Shown here piece after piece: positions 32,263 to 46,553 of a stretch of DNA of 64,000 nucleotides (position 1 is its first letter; each line of letters starts with the position of its first letter). Location of the stretch: positions 4,358,282-4,422,281 of the forward strand of contig MU004230.1 of NCBI GenBank assembly GCA_010405405.1. The letters are read 5' to 3'. Under the pieces are notes generated by a model. The model did no database searches, was not told the origin of the DNA, and saw nothing but the letters and a program-made list of their open reading frames with translations. Source of the stretch: Microthyrium microscopicum. Taxonomy: Eukaryota. The translations under genes and the position numbers were made by a program.

Positions 32263-33941
32263 TCAATCCCACCAAAAGCTCACACTGAAGCTGGGACTTA
32301 GACTGCGAACGTAATGCCACCATCCCTTGGGAATATAAAGACACTCTCCCGGGGCTAAAATACCTTCCAGATAGGCCGCGTTTCCAAGCAGTGGAAACTC
32401 TTTCCCAAACACTTTGGCATTGGGCTCGTCATCGTCATCCACTTCACTATTAGCCTCTTCGCGATCATCCTCCTCTAAATCAGTCGCATCCCATCCTGTC
32501 CACTCCTCGTATATCCGCATTCCCATTCCGACGTCTACGGAGCTGGTATTGGACATATTGATTCCATTCTCCATGCCTCGTGGATACAAGCATTTAGCCT
32601 GATCCGGTGCAAATAGCCTCACATATTTGTATCCAACAACCTGTGCGAGGATGTTGTGATGCGGATCTGTATGCGCGGGCGACACAGTATGTGCTGGGCC
32701 TATCCATGCATTTAGCTTCGGCTCTGCGAGTTCTTGCACATCTTGAGCAGTGTCTGGTGGGGATGTCCAGCAGTAATCTGGTATTGCAATATCTTTGCGT
32801 AGCTCTGGTACCTGTGAGAACAGGTCGTGCTGTGCAAGGTAGCCACGCTTGGATGGCGGAACGTTGGCAGTGAACATATTGGCTTCCAGAAACTCGCGGA
32901 CGGACATCATTTTCTGCGTCCAGCCCTCGGAGGTGTAGCTGCGGCCTATCTCGACAGGTACCAGGCGACGGCCACCAATGGTGTGCTTTAGAAGATAGGC
33001 TGGGTTATCCCAGGGTCGGTCGCCGAGAGCCGGCCAGTTATTCAGGCTGTTGGATATGATTAGAGGCTGTGGACAGCCTTGTTCGATATTAGTGGAATCT
33101 AGGTGAGATTGAAATGCTGCGAGGGAAAGATCATTGGCGCGTTTGATGGGGTGCTTTATTGGAGGATGGGCTGATGTTGAGCCCGGTGCATATTTTGAAG
33201 GAACTGGACATTGTTTTGCTGGTTGGTCGCTCTCGCCGTTCAGGGCGCCCATCTGGACTTCTATGTCGAGTGCTAGTTGGCCCAGATCAAGAAGAAGCTC
33301 CTCTATGAGAAGTTTGCGCAATGGCGCGCCTGTCATGCTCTACTCTCTATTAGTAAAAGTTGCAGAACGGAATGAATACGTTTGACCGAATATTCTCATT
33401 CACTCCGATGTCTGCCACAACACTTCTAGGGAGTGGCTGCTGAGTTCCCATCGCATTCGCTAATCTCATTAGGGTCATCTATCTTCAAAAAGTGCTGTGG
33501 CAGACATCATGATCGATGGCAGTATCCAGCTTAGTGGTCCACGTATTTCGACACCTGGGCGTTCTTACAACAGCCATATCAAGATCGCCAACAGCTCCGT
33601 CTAGCAGCTTCCAGCACCTCTCAAAATTCCCATCAGGATTCTCTAAAAGACCATCGAGCTGTCGTAAAGTGTCCTTCACTTTCCAGAGATTTGCATCGCA
33701 ATACAGTCTCCTCCAGCATATAGGAACTTCACTGAACGGATATGCATTGATTTTTATGCTGGCTTGTCGGATAACCTGGAATAATTAGGCTCAAATAAGG
33801 CAAGCTTTTAATGCTCTAAAGAGATCTTACCTCGACTGGTATTAAGGGTAGTGCACGAAGCATGGCATATCCACATTGCTTGATTGGATCATTTTCTAGG
33901 TTTTCTTTCAGGACATCCAGTAGAGACTCAGTCTTTAACAT
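32263..33941 (-). CDS. JmjC-domain 2-oxoglutarate/Fe(II) oxygenase, JMJD5/KDM8-like, 3 exons
   Basis: ATG at 33941; introns 33776-33830 and 33340-33568. Motifs 'AYPFSEVPICWRRLY', 'LDMAVSMTGAP', 'GRRLVPVEIGRSYT', 'GYLAQHDLFSQVPELRKDIAIPDYC', Fe ligands 'SPAHTDP...WWHYV', C-terminal 'SFSVSFWW'. Confidence 0.93.
33340..33568 (-). mobile_element. 229-nt structured spliceosomal intron, candidate introner-like element
   Basis: GTAAGA...ACTAAT...TAG. A 21-bp stem (33407-33427/33488-33508) and an 11-bp stem (33368-33378/33397-33407), with G-U pairs on the transcribed strand. Shares CGAATGCGATGGGA with intron 44161-44510. The intron itself is well supported; mobility is inferred. Confidence 0.5.
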
Positions 33942-34424
33942 GGCTCGGGAGGCTGAAGAGTCGTGTAACGATGTAGATGAATGAAATTGAAAGATGGACG
34001 GAGCTCGCGTCACGTTGTCAGGCGCGGGACAGAAGTTGTGGCAGACGCTATCAAATAATCACCACTAGCCAGCCATGGTTGAGCATTGCACCTGATTACC
34101 AGGCGTTATGCTTCGTAGAATTCGTAGAAGATCGAATTGCTATTTTTTAGTGAAAATAATAATGTAAAGCAATTGTTTAAGTTCCTCACTGGCGCTTATC
34201 ACTTTCACACGAAGCATAGAATAGCCAAAATACAGGAATTATTTACATTGCAATAATCAAGGGACTAATCATTGATCCACCATTTTTATATCAGGTGGAC
34301 CAACGAGCCTTTTGGGATATCGAGAGAAGCTCAAACGGCCGCACCAATATAATACAAATACAATAGGGTTTGGAAATACCCATCTTGCCACAAAATCCAT
34401 CAATGCAATCGGTCGTTCCATATC

Positions 34425-37400
34425 TTACTCTGGTGGAGCCAGAGCCTCCCACAATCGTTCCTCAACATTTTTCTCACCAGAAGAGCCAGTAGCCGCATTA
34501 GCACCCGTCACACCAACTCGTGGGCCACTGGCACCCAACGTTGAAGTGCCGCCGTTCGCGCCTACATTATAGACACGTGGAGGGACCGGCTTGTACGGTG
34601 GACGTTGGCTGGGTGCTCCAGAGCCATTTCCATACGGAGCAGAACTAGAGCCTGGAACGTTATGCGGCTGGACATAGTTGGCCGCCGGCATGCCGGCGAA
34701 TACGCCAGGTCCGCCAGGTCCAGTTGCGATTGGGCGAGCAGGTGGTGGATAAGGCTCTCCTCGAGCTTTGGCTTCGGCTGCCTCCCGCGCACGCTTCTTC
34801 GCTTGCACTAGATGTCCCTTTACGCCACGCAAGTATTTGGTCGCGCTATCCACGAGGGTTCGGTCTTCCGGGCTATCTCTGAGCTGATCAAGCAAAAGGC
34901 GTACCATAGTTTCGGACTTGATATGCGGGCACGTGCGGGCGACGCCATAGTGAGATGTGCCACAGAGTGGGCATAGTTCAACGCCGGCGATCTTTAGCGG
35001 GCAGGATCCAGGTGGATGAGAGTTACCGCAAGGAACACAGATCTGATACTTTGGCACCATGCAGGCTTGATGACTGTTCCAGGTGGCTGGAACTTTTTGG
35101 TTGTTGACTAGCACATACGGTTCGCCGTCATTTGGCTCGAACTGCTTTTGGTAGACTGTGGCCCGCTTCCATAGGTTTTCTTCCGGCTTTCTGCGAGGGA
35201 CAACAGGCTGGGGTCTAACCGGCACTGGTGGTCCATCGATGTCCATACGGTCCGGGTCATGGTAGAGTGTTTCAGGTTGTGGTTGCGGGACATGAGGAGG
35301 GGGCTCAGACACCATGGGCTGCCATCGAGAAGAGCCGCCTGGACGGGCTGGCATACCGAACGGTAGCTTTTTAGGAGATGGACGATCTTGAAATTGTGAG
35401 GCACCAACGATACCCGTCGGGCGTTGTTCGGCCGCGCGATGGCCTATGTCTCCAATATCAGCTGCATCGGGCATTGGAATGTCTGGCTCAGGCTCTGACT
35501 CTTCGCTTTCATCTGCCCGGAAATCAGTGTCAGAGTCGTATTCCGTTTTTCGAGCACGGTTGCGTTTCGCAGGCGCCGCAGGTCGTGCAATTGGTTCCTT
35601 TCCGTCATCAGCAGCCTCAATTTCGTTATCATTATCATCGCTAAAGTCTAGGCCTTCTCTAAACGCCCGGCGATCATCCGTGTCGTAATTGATAGGAGCC
35701 TCCAGGAATGTTAGTAAGTGGCTAAAACTATGGTGAGAACGACTTACATTTCGAGCTCGTCGACCGCGGCCCAGCGCCTCTGCGCGCGCGGCCGCTTCAG
35801 CAGCTGCGGCAACCTCTCGCTCCTTGAGAATTTTCTCCCATAAATCCGGATTTGGAGGAGCTTCCTCTTCAGACGACGCCATATCATCTTCAACAAGCTT
35901 CTCTTGATCATTAGCCCATACTCTCGCGAAGCTGAATTGAGATTCAGCAGAATCGCTTGGGCCTGACTTGGTGTTTTCCATTTGCGTTCTATCAAGAAGC
36001 TTTTCGATTGAGTTGTCGTCAAAGCGAATGTCGTTGTCTTGGTTATTGTCATCAAAGAGCTCTGCTGCGCCATGGCGTAGAATGCCTTCGACATCTTTCT
36101 CTGCGAGATCCTCAGCATCGAGTTGATCAACAACGACATGGTCCAGAGCAATCTTCTTTCGACCGATTTGAACGATCTTTTCTTCCACGCTTGATTTGGT
36201 CATGAATTGGAAACAGAGAACCTTTTTGGTTTGTCCAATACGATGTGCTCGGGACAGGGCCTGAATATCTTGATGCGGGTTGAAATCGGGGTCGAGAATT
36301 ATGACCGTATCGGCGGTTGCCAGATTGATACCAACGCCACCAGCACGTGTGGATAATAGAAAGGCAAATAGGGTTGAATTAGGAGCATTGAACTCGTCAA
36401 TGCGCTTCTGTTTCTCCAAAGAAGCCACCCTACCGTCAAGGCGCTGGTGAGGCATCTCCATTCCGTCTAGGAAATCCTGAACTACGTCAAGCATGTCCAA
36501 AAACTGGCTGAAGATCAAGACTCGATGTCCACGCTCCTGAAGCTTGGGTAGCAGTAGTTCAAGCAGTTGCAACTTTGACGAAGCATCCACGAGATTTCGA
36601 TGCAGAGCAGACTCTTGGACATTTCGTTCCTCAATCTCTCGACTATACACGAAGGGATGGCAGAGACATTTGCGGAGCTGCATCAATATGTTGTTCAAGT
36701 TGGCACGTTCGCCTTGCTTGAGCGTATTCTTGGTGAACAGTGCCCGCAATAACTCTGGATTTTTGGCCATGATGGATTTGTACAATTTCTTCTGCAGAAT
36801 AGACATGGAGACTGGCACAATAATTTGAGCCATTGGTGGCAAGAATGTAAGAACTTGGGCTTTGGTACGGCGAAGAATGTATGGCCGTATGAGATCGTGT
36901 AGCGAGGAAATATTGGCGTTGTTCATGTCCGCATATTGTTCTTCCATCTCAGCCGCTTTGATATCATCGTCCAAAAACTGCAGCAGGTTGAAAAGCTCAC
37001 GAGCGTTATTCTGAAGTGGAGTACCTGTGAGCAAGATACGAAACGGCACCTTGAATGAGGATAAAGTCCCATGAATCTGGCTTTGATCGTTCTTCAAGCG
37101 TTGACCCTCATCGACGATCATAGCTTGCCATTGCACCGACTTGAAAAATCTCCGGCTAGCATCGTCATTGATGGCTTCGTATGAGGTGACAACAACATGG
37201 CAATGAAGATCTTTGGACTTTTCTGGATATAGCTCGTAGTCATAAGCTTTTTGACGAGCAAGACTGGATCCGTAGTAAGCAACAACTCGTAAGGATGGTG
37301 CCCATTGTTTGATTTCGCGACGCCAATTTGGGCAGGTGGAATTAGGTACCACGACCAGGAATGGGAAGCAGTTATAGTCTTGAGTCATCATAGCCATGAA

Positions 37401-40015
37401 AGCAATGACCTGAATTGTTTTTCCAAGACCCATCTCATCTGCCAAGATGCCATTCTTCTTGCGATGCCACTGATAAAATATCCAATTCATGCCCTCGATT
37501 TGGTATTTCATCAATTCTCCACCAGTCACGTTTTCAGGTTGTTCGAGCTTCTCAAGAATCTTGAAAGGTTCCTTCCGCGCCTTCTCAAGGCGAGCTCTCA
37601 TGGGTTGGCTTTTGGGAATATGCGTGTAACGACCGAGTACCCAGTCATTGTATGCGGTGACGAAATCGCTCCATCGCTCTGCCTCATCAGGTTCAGGCAC
37701 AACTTCCCAAACAGCATCCTCATATCCTAGGCCTTTGTACTTGATTAGCGCCTGATCGACTTCTCGGATTCGGGCGCGATCAATTTCATCAGTGCGAATA
37801 TCAATGACGCTAGAGTATTTGACATCCAAGACGATGTCGATTCTCAAATACTCCTCGGGTACTGCGCTGTCGGTAGTGGATTTCGGGGATGGCTCTCGTT
37901 TGTAGAAGGCTTTGCGCATGGAATGTGTGGCCACACCCCAAACCCAGGCACCTGACATCCACACAACCTGGAAATAGGAGTGACCCTCCCACTTTACCAA
38001 GTATTCCTTCTCGTCTTCTTCAATGTGTTCAACAGGGACACCAGCCTCGTAAGCATCCATGTCAATAGGACGCCAAGCCACAAGAGTTGACACCTTCTTG
38101 TCTGCAGTGTTGTGACAATCAAGACATTTCCAATCCAATGCATATTCTTGAAATCTTGAATCAGCCCGCTCAGCGTCGTCCGGAATAACCATATCGTAAC
38201 GCGATCGAGATGGCAAGTGTTGGAAATGCCACGCTCGATAGCAAGCAACGCAACGAAACATGGGTATCTTTGGATTATTCACAAGGTTTTGAGCAACGTG
38301 AATGATCGGTTCAACCCCGCCATTCTCTTCTCGCTCTCGCTGCTCTTGCATTGGGGTCTTGCGGTCTCGGAATGGAGTGCAAGAAGCGCCATTGTTCTTG
38401 CAGTCCTGGCACAGTGCCGCATTTGGAGCCGTTGGGTCCTTTCTACGAGTGGTATTGATGCATCGGCGACACTGTAAAACAAAGTTTTCATCCCCAATTT
38501 TGGTGACTAGGTGATCGCGACCTCCACGAGTTCCGAGACAGTTCTTGTGATAGGAGAACGAGCAGCCCTGACAATAGACCATGACACCGTGCGAATTATC
38601 CGAGTTGCGACATGTATCGCAGAATCTGAGATGGCGGGCTCTGAAGGGATCTCCGTTGGGCAGAGGTTTGAAGACTTCCTTGGAAGCGCTCGCGAAACGA
38701 GCTATAGGTTGCTCATTCTCATTCCCGTCAGAAGAGGAACGAAATATATCTTCCTCGCCGACCTCTGCCATATTGACATCGTGTCGATTGCGATCGGATT
38801 TTCGAGTTGGAGCATGTGATGTTCCATTACGTTTTCGTTTGCGCTTAGCACTAACATCAGATCGAATGATACCGTAGCTCTTGTCGTCCTCCTCAGATTC
38901 GTCCTCAGATTCAGATAAACGATGGGCAGTTGAACGCGCGACTTTCATCTGGCGTCTACCCTGTTTTCCAACACTGACGAATTTGACCTGTTGCTGCTTT
39001 TTCTTGTTCCGCTGGACTCGTGAACTACGTCTCGGCGCGTCGCTGTCTTCTTCCTCCTCGGAACTGCTTTCTGGTGGGCTTCTTACGTTGCCGCTATCGT
39101 CGGTGGAAGAGTTCATTGTACTAGATCCACTGTTGTCCAAGAAGAGCTGTGGTCGCTTCGCCTTTCTCCGTGGAGGGATAGATACCTGCCCTTGGAAGTC
39201 ATCCTCATCATCCTCGTCGCCTAGATCCACGGAATCCCAATTCTGAAAGCCTTTGGGGCGTTTGACTTGTGTGCGGTGTTGACGTGTCGATACCATTCTT
39301 ACGGAAGAGTTGTCTGAATCGTAATTGTTGGTACTGAGATCTCTAAAGGCGCTAGCCCCGTTTTCGAGTTCCAGTATGGTGTTTTGTGAAAGCTGTAAAG
39401 TTAGGAGGTTAGCTTGGTTGTATAAGGAGGTTGTAGCTTTGAGTATTAAAAGTGATTATAGAGCTGAAGTAACGGGCTATTATGTTTGCGGATCAAGATA
39501 CAGAGGAGGGTCGTGGAAGAAGAAGAGTACAAGATACAAGTCTCCAGCTTTTAAGCTTGTCAAAATAAGAAGGGGCTCCTGGAAAGTGGAGAGTGAACAC
39601 AAATTGTGAAGGTATGAAATGGTGAAGCTCTGAGTTTATGAGGGGGATATGTACTTACTTTCTCTGTATGGCCATCCTCAAACTTGACTTTGAACATTGG
39701 CTCGCCTCCCCTCTTTCGGCCTGATCGTTTAAGAACCTTCCATACTGTATTCTCGCCAGGTATCTCCACAAAGTCTTCCGAATTGTCTACGATCGGCAGG
39801 ATGACTTGAACTCGTCGCTTGTATGCAGCTTCCTCCGTAGGCAGGTTGATGGCGCTCCAGCCTGCTTGCGAGGTAGCCACCACTGGGCTAGGAGAGATTG
39901 ATGGTAACTTGAATTGTATGCCATCTTCGTCATCTGTTGAGTCGACGGAGACCGGGACACGGTCACTGTCCACGGACATGACCAGTTTCTTTCGTGAAGG
40001 ATGACCTGGTGGCAT
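34425..40015 (-). CDS. MIT1: CHD/Mi-2-type SNF2 chromatin remodeller, Mit1-like (PHD, chromodomains, helicase, C-terminal Zn finger)
   Basis: Exon 1 (39659-40015) joins the 1623-aa ORF in frame through intron 39393-39658; probable in-frame intron 35700-35747. PHD 'CDTC...CQGCSFSYHKNC', chromo 'EYLVKWEGHSY' and 'IKYKGLGYEDAVWE', ATPase 'LADEMGLGKT', 'IVDEGQRLKN', 'QALSRAHRIGQ'. Confidence 0.9.
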
Positions 40016-40472
40016 TCTGGTTGCAGGAACCTCTGACCACTGCGCGCGTGATGTGTTGGACGTCTAGCAGTATTGCGTTGGGATTGAAGAGTTGGTCGGC
40101 GCGGCGAAAGCAGAGGAAGAGTAAGCGAGCATAGTTTGTAGCAGGAATTGAAGATTGGCGCAGAGTACAATAGATTGGTGAAGTTACCTCTGATGAATAG
40201 AAGTCGCGTAGCTTAGCCCTAGCCCTTCCTGCGCGCTCCACGTCTTAGAGATGGAACAAGGGGCCATACATCAGCCAGGGGGGTGATCTGGACTTCTAGG
40301 CGAAAGCCTTCTTGTTTAATCCAATTAAACACGCCTAAAACCATCAAAGCTTTGTCTAGCGTGCCCCTTTCGACGATTCCCAATTAGGCTTTGGAAATTA
40401 TTTTTCCAAACTTCAATCGTAAGTCTGGCTTTTGAGTTGTTTATTGCTGCGCAACCAGTGATAATCGCAAGT

Positions 40473-42699
40473 ATGATAAGACTCGTAGCTAGGTACAATC
40501 CTACTGCTGTTAGACATTCCCTCAGGCTTCCTGTATCTTCTGTGCGACTCTTATCCGTCAATTCTGGAATCAATCAAGGCTTGCGCGCAGAATCCAGATC
40601 TCGACGACCATCAAGGTCTTCGGACCGCACCACCAGCGCTGCTCGCTCGAGGACGCCTGGACGAGAGGAACGCTTTCCAAGGAAGTTTGGCGGAGGAGAG
40701 TCCAGTGGACGAAGTCGTCCTTTTCGCTCCAGATCTGACGCCCCAGAAGACTCGCTTCGTAGGCAATCTCGAACGTCAGACTCAGAACCCAGGAAGCCAT
40801 ACAGGGATAGTGATCGCGAGAGACCCGAGCGGCCAACCTCGAGATTTCAGAGAGATCCCAACTCCAGGACCTCACCATCCAAGCCATGGCAGTCAGAGGG
40901 TTCACGATCTTCAGCCCCAGATAGAAGCCGTTTTTCGCGGTTTGAGGGCTCTTCGGACCGCCCTGACAGGTCTTCGTCACGCTTTGAGAAACCATCGAGA
41001 TCTGAGGCTCCAAGTTCACGATTCGGAAGGCCATCTTCCAACACCAGGTTCGAAAAGCCGGCATCGAGATTTGAAAAACCAACATCGAAGTTCGGAATGC
41101 CACCCTCGCGGTTCGAGAAGCCAGCATCAAGATTTGAGACGCCGACGTCAAGGTTTGAGAGGCCGACATCAAGATTTGAGAGGCCGACATCGAGATTCGA
41201 GAAGCCAACTTCGAGATTCGAGAGACCTTCAAAACCCGACCGCTCAGAATCACGATTTTCCAAGCCATCAACCCGGGAACAATCGGGTTCTAGATATGAG
41301 AGACCTACGAGGTCTGCAAGAGATGAGATTGAGGAGGAAGAGTCTGAAGATTTTGAGGCGTTGATCCCTGAGATAGACGATCAACCATCACGAGTACCAC
41401 GATCTCCTAGGCCTTCGCGGACTCCGACTGCAGACAAATATGGGAGCAAGAGACCTCGCTCAACTCGGGTCGAGGAGCAAGAGGATGATGACAACCTCGC
41501 TTTGCATTCTGAAACATCCCCCTCTGAATTGAGACCAGGAACCAAAGCACCAAATGGCATGCCAATCACCACTGCAACGTCCGAGTTCGTATTCGGCCGC
41601 AATGCCGTTCTGTCTGTTCTTAGAGGAGGCAGACGAAAGATGTACAAGCTATACATCCATAAGCGAGCCCTAGGAGACGAAAAGGATGCGCAGGAGTTTT
41701 ACAAGGAACTTCGAGATCTTGCACACGAAAGTGGCATAGAAGTGACCAAAGTTGGCCAGGACTGGTTGCCACTCATGAACCACGTCGCCAAAGCAAGTCC
41801 TCATAATGGATGTATCCTCGAAGCAAGCCGATTACCTACCCCAGCTGTGACACATCTGGCAAAATACGACATGGAGAAGCACCAAGATAGCTTCATTGTC
41901 AACGTTGGACCCTCCTCCCTGGCCAAAGTTGACCGTCCACGAAAAGCTACGACCAATCCAGTGGTAGTCCTTCCATGTAACCTGGTATGTTCAGTTATTG
42001 CTCTTTTGACATGCCGCAGATTACTGATCCATATTCTATAGACCAATACAGCCAATCTGGGAGCCATGCTTCGATCAGCCTACTGGTTCGGCATCGACGC
42101 AGTTGCTCTTCCAGAGCGTGGAAGGTAAGAATAGAAAGAAATATTTATTATGGTTACTAACACATCTCAGTGCTAAAACTGACACTACAACTCTCAAAAC
42201 ATCCTCCGGAGCCTCCGAAGGTGTGAATATCTTTACCGTACGTAAGATTGAGGATTTTGTCACCAAAAGCAAAGAGGCCGGCTGGGAGGTTGTCAGCGCC
42301 CTCCCTCCAAATCCCAAACAGCGTACCAATGAGGCCAAGTCTACCATCCCCATTCCATCCGCGGACAGCCAATTAGCAAAATTACGACAAGAACGGCCTG
42401 TTTTATTGCTACTTGGAGGAGAGGAGCACGGTGTTCCATTTGACCTCTTGAAGCACGTGCAGACCAAAGTCAGCATTGCTGGTGGAGAGGACGATAAGCT
42501 TGGGGTGGACAGTCTCAATGTCAGCGTTGCAGCATCACTTATTTTCGCGGAATTGGCCAAACCGACTCGTGTCGGCGCTGTGGCTAAGGACGACCTGGAA
42601 TCTGATACTGGAACCACCACAAAGGCTGACCAAGAAGAGGTCATATTCGAGATTGATGATTCGGAAGAGCCAAAAGTCGCCGCAGTGGCATCACTATAA
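40473..42699 (+). CDS. MRM1: Mitochondrial rRNA 2'-O-methyltransferase (SpoU/TrmH family, Mrm1/Pet56), 3 exons
   Basis: R/S/L-rich mitochondrial-type presequence and 'EFVFGRNAV'. Introns 41985-42041 and 42125-42170 give the SPOUT motifs 'NLGAMLRSAYWFG', 'LLGGEEHGV' and 'VDSLNVSVAA'. Confidence 0.88.
41043..41231 (+). repeat. 21-nt coding tandem repeat, 9 copies, consensus SRFE(K/R)P(T/A)
   Basis: Protein reads TRFEKPA SRFEKPT SKFGMPP SRFEKPA SRFETPT SRFERPT SRFERPT SRFEKPT SRFERPS, with synonymous divergence between units. Confidence 0.92.
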
Positions 42700-43690
42700 A
42701 AGCATGGAATCATTTTTGGAAAGGTCTTGGTTTGTTTGGGTTTGAGCATAGCTTGAGGAGGCTTCATTTCGCATTTGAGAAGTTCTGATACGCATTTGAA
42801 GGAGTTGGGAAGCGATAGAATCAGTTTTCTTGACTCCAACTTATGATACCTTGTACAACTACCTGTTACTCTACTCTACATCATGGATTTCGGCGCTCTC
42901 TGTTTGTATATTCATTTCATTTTTGTAATATCACTGTACATTACCTCGAGCATCTGACCTGTAAATAGAAACTCTGGGTCCTTGCGTGTGGACGTCTCAT
43001 GCTCAACTATATATTTTCACTATGGCACCTGCGGCCAAACTTCATGACAAGCTCGGAGTGTCTGAAGAACATCACTGACACATATGACATGTGCGCAGCG
43101 AGTAACCTTCCCTTCTGGCTATGCCCCTTCAGCAATAATGCAAATTGCAGGATGACGTTGTTCTATTTTCTCGGGTCACATCGTACCAGATGTCCAATCA
43201 AAGCATATATCAGAACACTAAAGTGCCATAAGACTGGTAAGTGTGATCTCCAGTATCACTATCTTTTATCACATTCGAAATCACTGACCTTTATCACACC
43301 TTGAAACAGGTCGCTAGGCGCATCCTTCACCTCATAAAGGGCAGCTTATCCACCCGTAACGACATCGCCGACCCAAACTGGCATAACATAGGTCAAGTAA
43401 GCTTGGGCTTAGCTGTCTTGAGCAGTATTCAACAGGTGTAGCTTCCTTGATAGCAACCTTCACGTCTCCTAGGTGACGGTGGGCACGTGTCGGTGGTAGC
43501 ATAGCTCTGTTTCCATCACTTTCCGTCAACCTCGACACCTGACCACCGCACAAACACTTGCCCATAAAAACTTTTGTCTCAATCGCTTTCCAGTTCAACT
43601 ATATACCACCCATCAACAACTGAACAAAAATTGCATCACTTCCTCCTTAGACAACTTCGACAACCCGACTTACACCCAAACTCATTCATC

Positions 43691-45007
43691 ATGTCAACTC
43701 CAAAGAAGGAATCCACCTCGTCTCCGGTGAAAGGCGCTATGTCGTCTCCAAGCAAAGCCGTTCCGGCCTCTCCTGCCATCAAGCGAACTTACACGCCTGA
43801 TGAAATCTTTGCCATCGCAGTAAGTTGCACTGCCGTTGTCCTAGTGATATTGGCGCGCGTCGGGCTCAACTTTTGATGCTAACATACTCCAGGCCAGTGA
43901 CCCAGATCGGCAGTACTTCGTCTGCGAGCATCCAACGCGCTGCCCGCATCAAAGCCAGATCCTCGTCGGTCAGGAAGGATCTCGCGGGGTCGTCTCTGAT
44001 CTCTTTGGCCGCAACAAAGGCGCGGCGCTTGCCCAAAAGCGCCAGATCATCTGGTGTTTGCGGCACTATCAACTCGACTGCCAGAACAACCCTCAATGGC
44101 AGTTTCAACGTCTTGAGCTGGCTCGCGACCAGCTAGTCCGAAATGAGGAGGATCATCCAGGTAAGATTTCCCCGTGTCAACCCACATTTCTTGACGATAT
44201 CCGATAAAACGAAAAAAACATCACATCTCCCATCGCGCTCGATGGTAGCCATCGAGTGCGATGGCTGTTCCACGACTCCAGCTCGCAGAGACTTGGTGGT
44301 CTTTTCGGCTTCATTTTTGAACGACATGTGTTCGAGCCCAAAAGACCATACCTCCCATCGCACTGGATATCTACCATGAGATATGTTCCTGATCGAGTGC
44401 TATGGGACCCATCGAATGCGATGGGAGTACTACGTGATTGCGGCATAGGGGCCGGATGGTCTTTTCAAGCGTTTTGCCTCTGTTCGTACTCTTATACTAA
44501 CCAATTCCAGGCATCACCTATTGGATCACCCTGAAGAAAAACCAGGCCGAGCGTGTTCTCGCCTACATCAATGATAAACCCGATCCAAAATTTCAACATT
44601 CAGCATCAGGAACGATGAGAGGGAAATCATACAATGCGCCTCTCAACATCCTGATGCACATCCACGCCAAATTTGTGGGCAAGAATCGCAGTGTCCAGGA
44701 CTGTCGGGATTTGCTGGATTGGATTGCGGAGAAGCTCCGCAGCAATCAGATCCGTCAAGTGCCTCACGTCGAAATGATGCCGTTCCTTCTCCCTGCCAGC
44801 AAGATGGGCGCCAAGGATGCTTGTGCCCAGATCCTGGCTCGCAAAGAGGACGGACAAGACACAGAATATGACGAGTGGAACGTGGAGGACCAGGCGGACG
44901 ATGATGAGTACGAGGGAGAGGAACTAGACGCCGACGAGGAGGAGTCTCAGGAAGACGGCATCAAGGAAGAGCGTGAGGGTGGAGGAGAAGTGGAGGAAGA
45001 CATTTGA
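43691..45007 (+). CDS. Uncharacterised ascomycete protein with a Cys/His 'FGRNK...C..HYQ' domain (ORP1-like family), 3 exons
   Basis: ATG at 43691. Introns 43820-43892 and 44161-44510 give a continuous frame. Exon 2 reads 'FVCEHPTRC...RGVVSDLFGRNKGAA...IWCLRHYQ', resembling the fungal 'RKVVSHIFGRNK...CRKHYQR' motif. Acidic tail. Confidence 0.75.
44161..44510 (+). mobile_element. 350-nt highly palindromic spliceosomal intron, candidate introner-like element
   Basis: CAG|GTAAGA...ACTAAC..TTCCAG|G. TCCAGG direct repeat at both junctions. Hairpins at 44230-44245/44249-44264 (16 bp), 44297-44305/44340-44348 and 44352-44362/44417-44427. The palindromic module is duplicated internally. Confidence 0.55.
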
Positions 45008-46553
45008 TGCTTCCTTCTTGAAGTAGGGTTGTACGATAGGCGATTTACATTTGCTGGCGCGAAAGGCCTTGGAAACGGTTGAGCAGCATCGTCCTGTCAG
45101 CAAGACGTCTTGCTCATGCATTGTTAGACTACAGCATAAATACTTGTATCCGTTTGTGTATTTTCTTGTCCCAATTTTCTCTATCACTGACAGCAAATGA
45201 CGGCATAGCTAATTGGTTCCTATACGGTTCGAACTGCAGCATATCGTTGATAAGGAGACAAACTATAGGTTTCATTTTCATCTGCAATTCATGCTTCTGC
45301 ATCTGCTTCAAGTCCAGGATTCCACCACCCACAGAGCCGGCATCCAATGGCATTGATGAATAGAGGTATGAGCCCAACTCAAGGCACATCATTAGCCAGA
45401 AACAGACAGATAGAATCGCTGCGTCACATCACTAGTTTTCTGATTACTGATCATATCTAGAGGCCCTTTCAACGCACGGTGTAGCAGCCAGAACAGGTCT
45501 GGATTAGGAAATATCTCAGAACCGGTGCGTGACAACATCGAGTGCCCTGGAGTATTAGGAATCATTTTGGAGGAACGAGACGTCGCGAATGCGTTTGCAG
45601 ACACCAAATGCCCATGAAGGTTGGAGAGCAACACCATGAAGTTAGGTAAAGGCAGTGCCAAGCATCACGAACTTCTTGATTAGGAATAGCTTGTGCCGCC
45701 ACGAGAACCAGCACTAATCAACGTGGCTTTACCTCTTCCATCAGGCTGACCTTGCGTTTCCATGCTTTTGACACATTTGACCTTTGACCTGTTATTTTGT
45801 CACCTGCATACTAGTCATTCGAAAGCCATCATTCTGTTCTCCGCAACTGGCTAACTCAGGAATGAAACCACAGAGTTGTGAATATACCGGCCAAGAAGCC
45901 GTGATCGGCTAGAAATACTAATAACTCTCTTAGTAGTCATATTTGCCATAGAAACAGTCGGGTGGTAAAAAGAAAGATAAAGGCGCACGAAAGATGGGGC
46001 GAATCTTACGAATATATCACGATCCTTGCGCCGGAAACGAACCAAAGAAACCGGAGGCAAGCGTAATCGCAACAGCGTTGATTTGTGAGAGGAGACCAAC
46101 CACATGGCCAACCATGGTGGCAGCTGGGTCTTTCCGGAACCGAACGCTTTGTGGCCCAGTGAATTAATAATCATACACCCCAGCCTGCATAATACTTACC
46201 GGGAAACCGCTTTTGGGTCTTGAACAGACCCACCCAATTATCTGGAGATAGACTATGCGCAAGGCATAACTACAGACCCAATTCCTCCTTTTATATCGCG
46301 GTTTAAACACGCTCAGTGTAGTCGAATTTCAGCCTAGATCTGCCGCTTATTACCCCACATTTTACAACTCCTCCCCACTCTTCCTTGGTGTATCATTTCT
46401 CAAGTCCCTACCGCTGATACGCTCGCCTTATTGGCATCGTCCTTACACCAAAACTGGCAGCAGTTCTCTCAAGCTATTTCTCCTATTTTCGACTGACGAT
46501 TTGATCTCTATATCTACCTGAGCTTTGAAGAAGGACTTCTTCGTGACGTCACC

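What the first reader, a model, noticed from the sequence alone, without database searches (positions are those of the whole stretch)
33340..44510. Two long hairpin-rich introns in unrelated genes share sequence: candidate introner-like element family
Seen: most introns here are 45-75 nt, but intron 2 of the JmjC gene (33340-33568, -, 229 nt) and intron 2 of the ORP1-like gene (44161-44510, +, 350 nt) are much longer and fold into long stems. In sense orientation they share the exact 14-mer CGAATGCGATGGGA (33459-33446 and 44413-44426). A crude estimate for two sequences of these lengths, both strands, is 229x350x2/4^14, about 6e-4, ignoring composition and multiple testing. They also share looser blocks: 5' ends GTAAGA..CCC..GTGTC.A, GCCATCGA....GATG.CTG, CTGGATA(T)CTRCCAT, and 3' ends GTTC...ACT.TT..ACTAA. 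In both, the 5' end can pair with sequence just upstream of the branch point (AGAACG/CGTTCT; GTAAGA/TCTTAT). Established: introner-like elements in Dothideomycete fungi are long, stably structured spliceosomal introns that multiply into unrelated genes. Inference: these are diverged members of one spreading family built on a CCCATCGCRYTCGATGG...CCATCGARTGCGATGGGA palindrome.
Basis: partly seen in the sequence, partly recalled or inferred. Interest (0 to 1): 0.8.

Follow-up and report, generated by a model that had tools for sequence, protein, structure and literature searches.

The report
Palindromic repeat inside two fungal introns
Two unusually long, hairpin-rich introns in unrelated genes of a leaf-litter fungus carry pieces of one short palindromic repeat that is scattered through its genome, but nothing yet shows that this repeat makes introns.

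Summary
Both introns are real. RNA-derived contigs skip exactly 33340-33568 (229 nt) and 44161-44510 (350 nt). Both fold far better than shuffles (z -3.3 and -5.2), and they hold the strongest inverted repeats of the 64 kb window. The shared 14-mer is real. It lies in an ~80-nt collinear match, 56 of 84 columns identical, reached by 0 of 500 shuffles. Intron 1 is the only outlier among 2104 window segments.

The shared part is a short palindromic module built on the dyad CCATCG-N4-CGATGG. In contigs of the source genome it recurs at dozens of other sites at 80% identity or more, with sharp ends and unrelated flanks. No foreign piece exceeds 75 nt, and some copies sit in abundant RNA. The 5' ends of the two introns are not alike and the 3' ends only weakly.

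The JmjC intron site is empty in 77 of 77 informative orthologous loci, but the neighbouring ordinary 55-nt intron site is also empty in 53 of 55.

Best reading: a MITE- or foldback-like repeat resident in introns. An intron-making "introner" family is not excluded (about 0.3). The whole genome was not available, so copies could not be counted by location.

The parts
33340..33568 (-). Intron 2 of the JmjC/Cupin_8 gene, 229 nt, GT..AG, phase 0 between V106 and S107
   Evidence: RNA contig skips it exactly. The downstream exon matches Cupin_8 at 1.3e-38. Fold z -3.32.
33446..33525 (-). Diverged copy (about 67-69% identity) of the palindromic repeat module. It ends in the shared 14-mer at 33446-33459.
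   Evidence: Local alignment to 44348-44426: 56 of 84 columns identical in sense, 57 of 83 in antisense, 0 of 500 shuffles as good. It is the sole outlier among 2104 window segments. Without the 14-mer the left block alone is not significant (173 of 2000 shuffles). On its own the segment is not structured (z +0.65).
33403..33512 (-). Local inverted repeat of about 22 bp that gives intron 1 its stability (core arms 33407-33425 and 33490-33508)
   Evidence: z -4.88. No other contig of the source genome matches it. The small extra depth in this bin equals the main contig fitting its own second arm (the second point is my inference).
44161..44510 (+).
   Evidence: RNA contig skips it. Fold z -5.19 in sense and -4.35 in antisense.
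44159..44215 (+). 5' module, also repeated elsewhere. It starts 2 nt before the 5' splice site.
   Evidence: X1 record 2 matches it with 47 of 57 letters alike. Three 'opposite strands' joints link this module to the palindrome in other contigs. Depth at 44207 is about five extra contigs (tables 4, 5, 8).
44227..44264 (+). Palindrome copy A: two dyads forming a perfect 16-bp hairpin
   Evidence: -29.3 kcal/mol, z -9.25. Seven foreign contigs end their match at 44264.
44352..44427 (+). Palindrome copy B, the 76-nt module that is the commonest repeated form. It contains the 14-mer at 44413-44426.
   Evidence: Foreign pieces run 44346/52/53/55/60 to 44404/24/25 with 9-14 differences. Fourteen X1 contigs end at 44424-44427. 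X1 depth rises from 105 to 1640-1732 at 44388-44391. Fold z -4.55.
44227..44427 (+). Composite 201-nt foldback: outer arms 44227-44252 and 44402-44427 (26 nt, 81% complementary), inner hairpin 44297-44310 with 44335-44348
44156..44161 (+). TCCAGG, repeated directly at 44506-44511 across both intron boundaries (possible target-site duplication or splice-consensus chance)
   Evidence: table 5: 'both = 6'. The other eight introns give 0, 4, 1, 0, 1, 2, 3, 1. Sequence read.
44465..44500 (+). 3' block weakly similar to 33350-33385 (-) of intron 1, ending at the branch-site ACTAA
   Evidence: 26 of 37 identical and 7 of 1000 shuffles as good, but not clearly above other intron pairs.

Best explanation
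Both features are ordinary spliceosomal introns made long by repeat DNA.

Intron 2 of the 297-aa gene holds two adjacent copies of a short non-coding palindromic repeat, together forming a 201-nt foldback, plus a 5' module. The repeat's arms are built from the dyad CCATCG-N4-CGATGG. Intron 2 of the JmjC gene holds one old, decayed copy. That copy has kept only the terminal arm (the 14-mer) and a loosely similar left part. Separately, the intron acquired a local inverted duplication of about 22 bp.

The repeat behaves like a MITE- or foldback-type non-autonomous DNA element. It is short, has inverted arms, occurs as dozens of dispersed copies with sharp ends and unrelated flanks, and folds equally well on both strands.

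Shown: the introns, the folds, the similarity, multi-copy status, and presence in RNA.

Inferred:
- The element spreads at the DNA level, with the dyad as the binding site of a dimeric transposase-like protein.
- It persists where it does no harm (introns, UTRs, spacers).
- Inside an intron its hairpins collapse the added length, so that the 5' splice site and branch point stay close and splicing tolerates it.
For: - Splicing is confirmed for both introns.
- The motif CCATCGMRYKCGATGG has 3 hits in the window, all in intron 2, against 0.28 expected.
- In X1, contigs of the source genome, 43 pieces besides the main contig were laid on the 12.4 kb stretch: 3 at 95-99% identity, 17 at 90-95%, 23 below 90%.
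- X1 depth is raised in four bins. Two large rises cover 43978-44805 (402 and 361 against 105). One small rise lies over a helicase segment (128). One at intron 1 (110) matches the main contig's own inverted arm.
- The listed foreign pieces are 57-75 nt.
- Matches stop at 44264 (7 contigs) and at 44424-44427 (14 contigs), with flank agreement of only 0.53-0.58.
- Intron 2 folds equally well in antisense (z -4.35 against -5.19), as expected for a DNA-level palindrome.
- Homology between the two introns is confined to the core. The 5' flanks show no signal (942 of 1000 shuffles as good), and the intron ends are no more alike than other pairs.
- RNA contigs carrying copies reach depths of 428, 276 and 268. 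The gene's own intron 2 reaches about 4, and the two mature mRNAs reach 289 and 684.
Against: - At least three other contigs join a look-alike of the first 57 nt of intron 2 to the palindrome. Two of these similarities end exactly at 44159, 2 nt before the GT, so a module of the repeat includes the 5' splice site.
- A 6-nt direct repeat, TCCAGG, brackets intron 2. This is the largest value among the nine introns.
- The JmjC intron site is unoccupied in 77 of 77 informative orthologous loci.
- The 3' flanks show a weak collinear match.
- Both folds pair the 5' splice site next to the branch site, an architecture described for introner-like elements.
- High-depth RNA contigs could be stable excised introns rather than exons.
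- No target-site duplication or autonomous partner was shown for the element.
Confidence: 0.52

Rival explanations
1. An intron-generating element family (introner or introner-like). A composite element, made of a 5' module starting with (G)TAAGA, the palindromes and a 3' part, inserts into exons. Its own end and a duplicated target (TCCAGG in the 297-aa gene) supply the splice sites. Copies then decay, so that only the palindrome arms stay recognisable. The JmjC intron would be an old member.
For: - The organism belongs to the class in which introner-like elements were described (PMC4457414 text).
- Both introns are long and structured.
- They share a family core.
- The family is multi-copy.
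- Similarity in other contigs ends at 44159, next to the 5' splice site.
- The 6-nt repeat TCCAGG sits at both boundaries, and the exon sequence is seamless.
- The JmjC site is empty in 77 of 77 loci, and the protein alignment is gap-free through LDMAVSMTG.
- There is weak 3' collinearity.
Against: - No foreign piece longer than 75 nt was found at 80% identity or more.
- Most copies end inside the intron, far from the 3' splice site.
- In one contig the 5' module is abutted by another palindrome, not by unique exon-like sequence.
- Copies occur in abundant RNA (all).
- The 5' flanks of the two introns are unrelated.
- The JmjC intron has no flanking repeat ('both = 0').
- The plain 55-nt intron of the same gene is also absent from 53 of 55 orthologous loci, so lineage-specific introns are the rule here.
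- Ascomycete introner families are reported to lack inverted terminal repeats and target duplications (PMC9860276 passages). This element has inverted arms.
Confidence: 0.3
2. Only intron 2 of the 297-aa gene carries the repeat. The 14-mer in the JmjC intron is a chance match or an isolated fragment, and that intron is long simply because of its own local inverted duplication.
For: - Without the 14-mer the remaining similarity is not significant: 173 of 2000 shuffles score as well, and 87 of 3150 background windows do.
- No other contig matches intron 1 at 80% or more.
- Its element-like segment does not fold (z +0.65), and its stem is unrelated to the dyad.
Against: - Pairwise E for the 14-mer is 7.6e-4.
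- The 14-mer is exactly the terminal arm, part of the stretch where foreign contigs pile up most and where 14 of them end.
- The left block lies collinear and at similar spacing.
- The combined score is unmatched in 500 shuffles and in 2104 window segments, where the next best is 16 against 21 and 24.
Confidence: 0.15

Closest known systems
Introner-like elements (ILEs) of Dothideomycetes (van der Burgt et al. 2012, cited from PMC3609843 and PMC4457414; abstract and passages read)
   Same: Same fungal class. The introns are spliced, about 3-6 times longer than the regular ones, and have significantly stable predicted folds. At least one sits at a lineage-specific position.
   Different: [quoted passage not shown] Here the repeated unit is an internal module of at most 75 nt, the 5' ends of the two introns are unrelated, and copies also occur in abundant RNA. 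Whether other copies are introns could not be tested.
Transposon-type introners of algae and other protists (Gozashti et al. 2022, PMC9860276, passages read; Huff et al. 2016, recalled and not read)
   Same: A short non-autonomous element with inverted arms. There is a possible 6-nt target duplication (TCCAGG) that would supply the 3' splice site, and an element end that would complete the 5' splice site.
   Different: The paper states that ascomycete introner families have no terminal inverted repeats or target duplications. For this element, coincidence of element ends with intron ends is suggested only at one end of one intron, and copy number in introns is unknown.
Internally symmetrical sister (stw)introns of Hypoxylaceae (Fekete et al. 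2021, PMC8469720, abstract read)
   Same: Ascomycete introns with long inverted repeats that could form double-stranded RNA, proliferated within a genome.
   Different: Those have 45-55-nt terminal inverted repeats spanning the whole intron, a nested donor, and no flanking duplications. Here the palindromes are internal and there is no stwintron structure.
Fungal MITEs in general, for example mimp elements of Fusarium (PMC3599309, search listing only)
   Same: Short, non-coding, dispersed copies with inverted arms, in and near genes.
   Different: No sequence relation was tested. For this family no target-site duplication and no parent transposase are shown.

Membership tests
Introner-like elements (Dothideomycetes) | Is a spliced U2-type intron with canonical signals | tested here: met
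   RNA contigs skip both introns exactly. Both have GT..AG ends and an ACTAA branch motif.
Introner-like elements (Dothideomycetes) | Longer than regular introns and with a significantly lower folding energy | tested here: met
   229 and 350 nt against 46-73 nt for six of nine confirmed introns. z -3.32 and -5.19, while the control long intron gives z +0.66.
Introner-like elements (Dothideomycetes) | The whole intron, splice signals included, is the repeated unit, in many near-identical copies | tested here: not met
   The longest foreign pieces in source-genome contigs are 57-75 nt at 80-90% identity. Most end at 44264 or at 44424-44427. The two introns share only about 80 nt at 67-69%, and their 5' flanks are unrelated. 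Heavily decayed members cannot be excluded.
Introner-like elements (Dothideomycetes) | Copies lie as introns in unrelated genes (strong bias to genes) | not testable with these tools
   No whole genome is held. Only two copies in 64 kb were seen, both in introns. Some copies sit in RNA contigs of mRNA-like depth.
Introner-like elements (Dothideomycetes) | Marks a gained intron position | tested here: inconclusive
   The JmjC site is empty in 77 of 77 informative loci, but the plain 55-nt intron site is also empty in 53 of 55. The 297-aa gene has only weak homologues (best E 7e-9) and no orthologous DNA.
MITE / foldback-type non-autonomous DNA element | Short, non-coding, with inverted terminal arms | tested here: met
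   Modules of 38, 76 and 201 nt. Arms of 26 nt at 81% complementarity, and a 16-bp perfect hairpin. Both strands fold equally well.
MITE / foldback-type non-autonomous DNA element | Dispersed multi-copy with defined ends and unrelated flanks | tested here: met
   43 extra pieces in X1. Match ends pile up at 44264, 44392 and 44424-44427. Flank agreement is 0.53-0.58.
MITE / foldback-type non-autonomous DNA element | Target-site duplication | tested here: inconclusive
   TAC flanks copy B on both sides, but intron 1 and the reverse strand show the same TAC, so it may be part of the element. TCCAGG brackets the whole intron.
MITE / foldback-type non-autonomous DNA element | Related autonomous transposon with matching ends | not testable with these tools
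   This needs the genome. The 64 kb window holds no further copy.
Transposon-type introners | Element ends coincide with intron ends, and the duplication supplies a splice site | tested here: inconclusive
   Similarity in two other contigs ends at 44159, and TCCAGG repeats at both boundaries of intron 2. The 3' 83 nt are not seen repeated, and the JmjC intron has no flanking repeat.

The most novel reading that the evidence does not exclude
This is an intron-making DNA element in an ascomycete. A composite foldback element, with arms that are arrays of the dyad CCATCG-N4-CGATGG, inserts into exons, duplicates a 6-nt target ending in AGG, and so creates both splice sites. Its hairpins bring the 5' splice site next to the branch point. 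That would be a transposon-type introner with inverted repeats and a target duplication in the one group (ascomycetes) reported to have neither (PMC9860276). It would also link Dothideomycete introner-like elements to DNA transposition.
Probability: 0.25. Interest if true: 0.65.

Novelty: new member of a known kind. Interest (0 to 1): 0.38.

Why it matters
How new spliceosomal introns arise in fungi is still open. Dothideomycete introner-like elements have been read as RNA-based elements, because they lack inverted repeats and target duplications.

This locus gives a concrete case to test. It offers a palindromic, DNA-like repeat family in two long spliced introns of a Dothideomycete from an order with no close sequenced relative. 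One repeat module includes a 5' splice site, and a possible 6-nt duplication sits at the intron ends.

If a genome census shows that copies are whole introns, it would tie fungal intron gain to DNA transposition. If not, it is a clean example of how repeats lengthen introns and of how hairpins may make that harmless.

Tried and rejected
- **Whole genome:** none is held, so the copy census was not possible.
- **Metagenome scan:** a 21-nt arm pattern gave 0 matches.
- **Orthologous loci:** the dyad motif is absent from all 80 fungal loci fetched.
- **Earlier findings of this scan:** nothing on this genome or this sequence. The 'introner' look-up returned only other organisms and did not change my reading.
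- **Rfam:** no family at gathering score in the window. At E up to 1 only one chance-level hit in intron 1 (E 0.73), and none in intron 2. An intron-hosted snoRNA or other known RNA is therefore not supported.
- **RNA runs:** no listed holder is on record as RNA. X5 is treated as RNA-derived only because its contigs skip nine GT..AG introns.
- **X6:** it turned out to be the same organism at low depth (10 of 21 pieces at 99% or more), not a sister taxon, so it gave no presence/absence test.
- **Orthologues of the 297-aa gene:**
  - No Pfam match for its exons or its homologues.
  - No longer homologue at E up to 1e-5.
  - 19 weak representatives, best E 7e-9.
  - The large records behind the loci are not held.
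  - The position of intron 2 in relatives therefore stays unknown, and the 'ORP1-like' label is unverified.
- **Pfam scope:** full-length spliced proteins were not scanned. Single exons were.
- **HSPs starting at residue 37:** I first took these as a shared intron at the 55-nt site. The DNA upstream runs on as coding sequence, so I dropped that idea.
- **Protein atlas:** gave no taxonomic help.
- **Literature:** a full-text search for the species name returned 22 papers, 20 of them listed, and none of the listed titles concerns introns or repeats. The species name does not occur in the main text of PMC9860276. Its supplementary tables were not seen and may list it.
Full report
**Observation**

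The two intervals are as described. Intron 1 is 33340-33568 on the minus strand and is 229 nt long. Intron 2 is 44161-44510 on the plus strand and is 350 nt long. Both have GT..AG ends and an ACTAA branch motif.

Contigs of run X5 skip nine GT..AG introns in 32800-45200, including exactly these two, so both are spliced in vivo (table 5). X5 is labelled RNA only as a guess, and its spliced contigs are what shows that it is RNA-derived. The nine confirmed introns measure 46, 48, 55, 57, 73, 73, 229, 266 and 350 nt. There is therefore a third long intron, 39393-39658 on the minus strand. It is unstructured (z +0.66) and served as my control.

**Host genes and organism**

The exon after intron 1 encodes a Cupin_8/JmjC domain (E 1.3e-38). 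It is 100% identical to a 464-aa protein that NCBI names as from Microthyrium microscopicum. That species is a Dothideomycete of the order Microthyriales. The next-best homologues are only 51-54% identical.

The other gene encodes 297 aa by my spliced model. It has no Pfam family and only weak homologues, best E 7e-9. The label 'ORP1-like' is unverified.

**Structure**

- Intron 1 folds at -69.5 kcal/mol (z -3.32) and intron 2 at -120.2 kcal/mol (z -5.19).
- The strongest inverted repeats of the whole 64 kb window all lie in these two introns.
- Intron 2 folds equally well in antisense (z -4.35), which is what a DNA-level palindrome does.
- Intron 1 is more stable in sense (z -3.32) than in antisense (z -1.29).
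- In both MFE and centroid folds the GUAAGA 5' end pairs with the sequence just upstream of the branch site. I did not test whether that exceeds chance.

**Similarity between the two introns**

The 14-mer is exact, with pairwise E 7.6e-4, and occurs nowhere else in the window. It lies at the end of a collinear alignment of about 80 nt, intron 1 positions 43-123 against window 44348-44426.

- 56 of 84 columns are identical in sense and 57 of 83 in antisense.
- The scores are 21 and 24 against 11.6 +/- 1.7 for shuffles, and 0 of 500 shuffles reach them.
- Among 2104 segments of 229 nt covering the whole window on both strands, intron 1 is the only outlier. The next best score is 16, with mean 9.5 and sd 1.75.
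- The control intron shows nothing.

Most of this signal is the 14-mer. Without it the left block (22 of 29 identical) is matched by 173 of 2000 shuffles and by 87 of 3150 background windows.

Outside the core, the 5' flanks are unrelated: 942 of 1000 shuffles score as well. The 30-nt 5' ends score 5, where the best of 36 intron pairs scores 8. The 3' flanks give 26 of 37 identical, ending at ACTAA, and only 7 of 1000 shuffles match that. However, the unrelated pair i266/i350 scores 11 against 12 for this pair, so this is weak.

**What the shared part is**

Intron 2 contains three exact instances of the dyad CCATCGMRYKCGATGG. The window has no others, and 0.28 are expected. The dyads are arranged as follows.

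- Copy A (44227-44264) is a perfect 16-bp hairpin with z -9.25.
- Copy B (44352-44427) forms two hairpins with z -4.55.
- Outer 26-nt arms make 44227-44427 a 201-nt foldback, with a further hairpin inside.

Intron 1's element-like 81 nt keep only the terminal 6-bp pairing (z +0.65). That intron's stability comes from a different stem of about 22 bp, 33403-33512 (z -4.88).

**Copies elsewhere in the genome**

No whole genome is held, so I laid Logan contigs of four runs on 32800-45200 at 80% likeness or more.

- X1 and X3 may be the source of this DNA, so they are not independent support.
- In X1 one contig covers the whole stretch with 0 differences, and 43 further pieces were laid: 3 at 95-99% identity, 17 at 90-95% and 23 below 90%.
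- X1 depth is flat at 104.9 except in four bins.
  - 43978-44391 reaches 402 and 44392-44805 reaches 361.
  - 37354-37767 reaches 128, over a 35-nt helicase segment.
  - 33214-33627 reaches 110. I attribute this to the main contig fitting its own inverted arm, which is an inference.
- At 44388-44391 depth reaches 1640-1732, about 15-16 extra contigs.
- The table keeps the longest pieces, and the foreign ones are 57-75 nt with 9-14 differences.
- Matches stop at 44264 (7 contigs), start at 44392 (5 contigs) and stop at 44424-44427 (14 contigs).
- Flank agreement is only 0.53-0.58, which means unrelated flanks.

The palindrome module is therefore a dispersed repeat with sharp ends. No part of intron 1 is matched by another contig.

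The first 57 nt of intron 2 are also repeated. One piece covers 44159-44215 with 47 of 57 letters alike. Three 'opposite strands' joints tie this module to the palindrome in other contigs, and two of those similarities end exactly at 44159, 2 nt before the GT. In one of them what lies beyond is another palindrome, not unique sequence.

**Copies in RNA**

In X5 at least eight contigs end their match at the palindrome arms. Three element-bearing contigs have depths of 428, 276 and 268. That is comparable to the two mature mRNAs (289 and 684) and far above the gene's own intron 2 (about 4). Some copies therefore sit in abundant RNA. They may be exonic or UTR copies, although stable excised introns cannot be excluded.

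**Intron boundaries**

The boundaries of intron 2 carry the direct repeat TCCAGG at 44156-44161 and 44506-44511 ('both = 6'). The other eight introns give 0, 4, 1, 0, 1, 2, 3 and 1, and the JmjC intron gives 0.

**Orthologues**

Junction V106|S107 lies in the conserved motif LDMA(L/V)I(L/M)TGAP. A metagenome scan with that alignment returned 80 fungal loci, 36-51% identical, on contigs of up to 1.77 Mb.

- In 77 of 80 loci one tblastn segment runs through the junction, with no insertion or stop inside the motif.
- Three loci (L015, L070, L078) do not reach the junction and were dropped.
- The 77 loci fall into 56, 48 and 23 clusters at 95%, 80% and 60% identity.

The 229-nt intron is therefore specific to this lineage. 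The control matters here. The ordinary 55-nt intron at E37|V38 is also absent from 53 of 55 informative loci, and L062 and L063 have a 17-residue in-frame insertion there. Lineage-specific introns are thus the rule in this gene. With no relative closer than about 51% identity, the gain cannot be dated or tied to the element. No orthologous DNA could be obtained for the 297-aa gene.

**Interpretation**

I rank a MITE- or foldback-like palindromic repeat residing in, and lengthening, two real introns first (0.52).

- Shown: splicing, folds, core-restricted similarity, dispersed multi-copy status and RNA presence.
- Inferred: DNA-level spread, the dyad as a protein-binding site, and tolerance in introns because hairpins shorten the effective distance from the 5' splice site to the branch point. 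That effect is known from yeast introns, which I recall and did not read here.

The introner reading keeps about 0.3. In its favour are the 5' module that includes the splice site, the TCCAGG repeat, the seamless lineage-specific JmjC intron and the weak 3' collinearity. A chance or fragment origin of the intron 1 match keeps about 0.15.

**Comparison with known families**

[quoted passage not shown] They are about twice as long as regular introns, have lower folding energy, and decay quickly (PMC3609843 and PMC4457414). Length, structure and splicing are met here. The whole-intron repeat unit was tested and not met at 80% identity. Gene bias is untestable with these tools.

Gozashti et al. 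state that ascomycete introner families have no terminal inverted repeats or target duplications (PMC9860276). This element has inverted arms. It is therefore either not an introner or an unusual one.

The symmetrical (stw)introns of Hypoxylaceae (PMC8469720 abstract) are the nearest ascomycete analogue in shape but differ in anatomy.

**Limits**

- Copy contexts were not seen, because contig sequences are not returned.
- Counts come from assemblies that break at repeats.
- X1 and X3 may be the source of the window.
- The supplements of PMC9860276 were not seen.

Noticed in passing
window 39393-39658 (-): A third long intron (266 nt), upstream of the start codon of a 1758-aa chromodomain/SNF2-type helicase reading frame. 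It is pyrimidine-rich and unstructured (z +0.66), so long introns here need not be hairpin-rich.
   Followed up: partly
window 37417-37452: A segment of about 35 nt inside the helicase gene is matched by other contigs in all four runs. X6 depth is 14.8 there against 4.4 or less elsewhere. It is probably a conserved helicase motif shared with other genes or organisms.
   Followed up: no
window 43691-45004 (+): The gene called 'ORP1-like' has no Pfam domain and only weak homologues (best E 7e-9), which share an FGRNK...WC..HYQ-type stretch with its second exon. It looks like an uncharacterised fungal family with an acidic tail.
   Followed up: partly
window 43237-43309 (+): One RNA contig runs from the upstream methyltransferase-like gene into the 297-aa gene and skips a 73-nt GT..AG intron between them. 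This is either a UTR intron or read-through or overlapping transcripts.
   Followed up: no
window about 40473-42000 (+): The N-terminal part of the upstream reading frame holds a run of near-identical peptide repeats of the type SRFE(K/R)P(T/A)S.
   Followed up: no
L062 and L063, at the residue 36/37 equivalent of the JmjC protein: A 17-residue in-frame insertion sits exactly where the window's gene has its 55-nt intron. It may be a 51-nt intron read through by tblastn, which would be a shared or parallel intron position.
   Followed up: no
L001-L003, between query residues 89 and 95: The tblastn match breaks with a frame change and 46 nt between the segments, so an intron at a different position in these orthologues is likely. 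This also shows that these contigs are genomic DNA.
   Followed up: no
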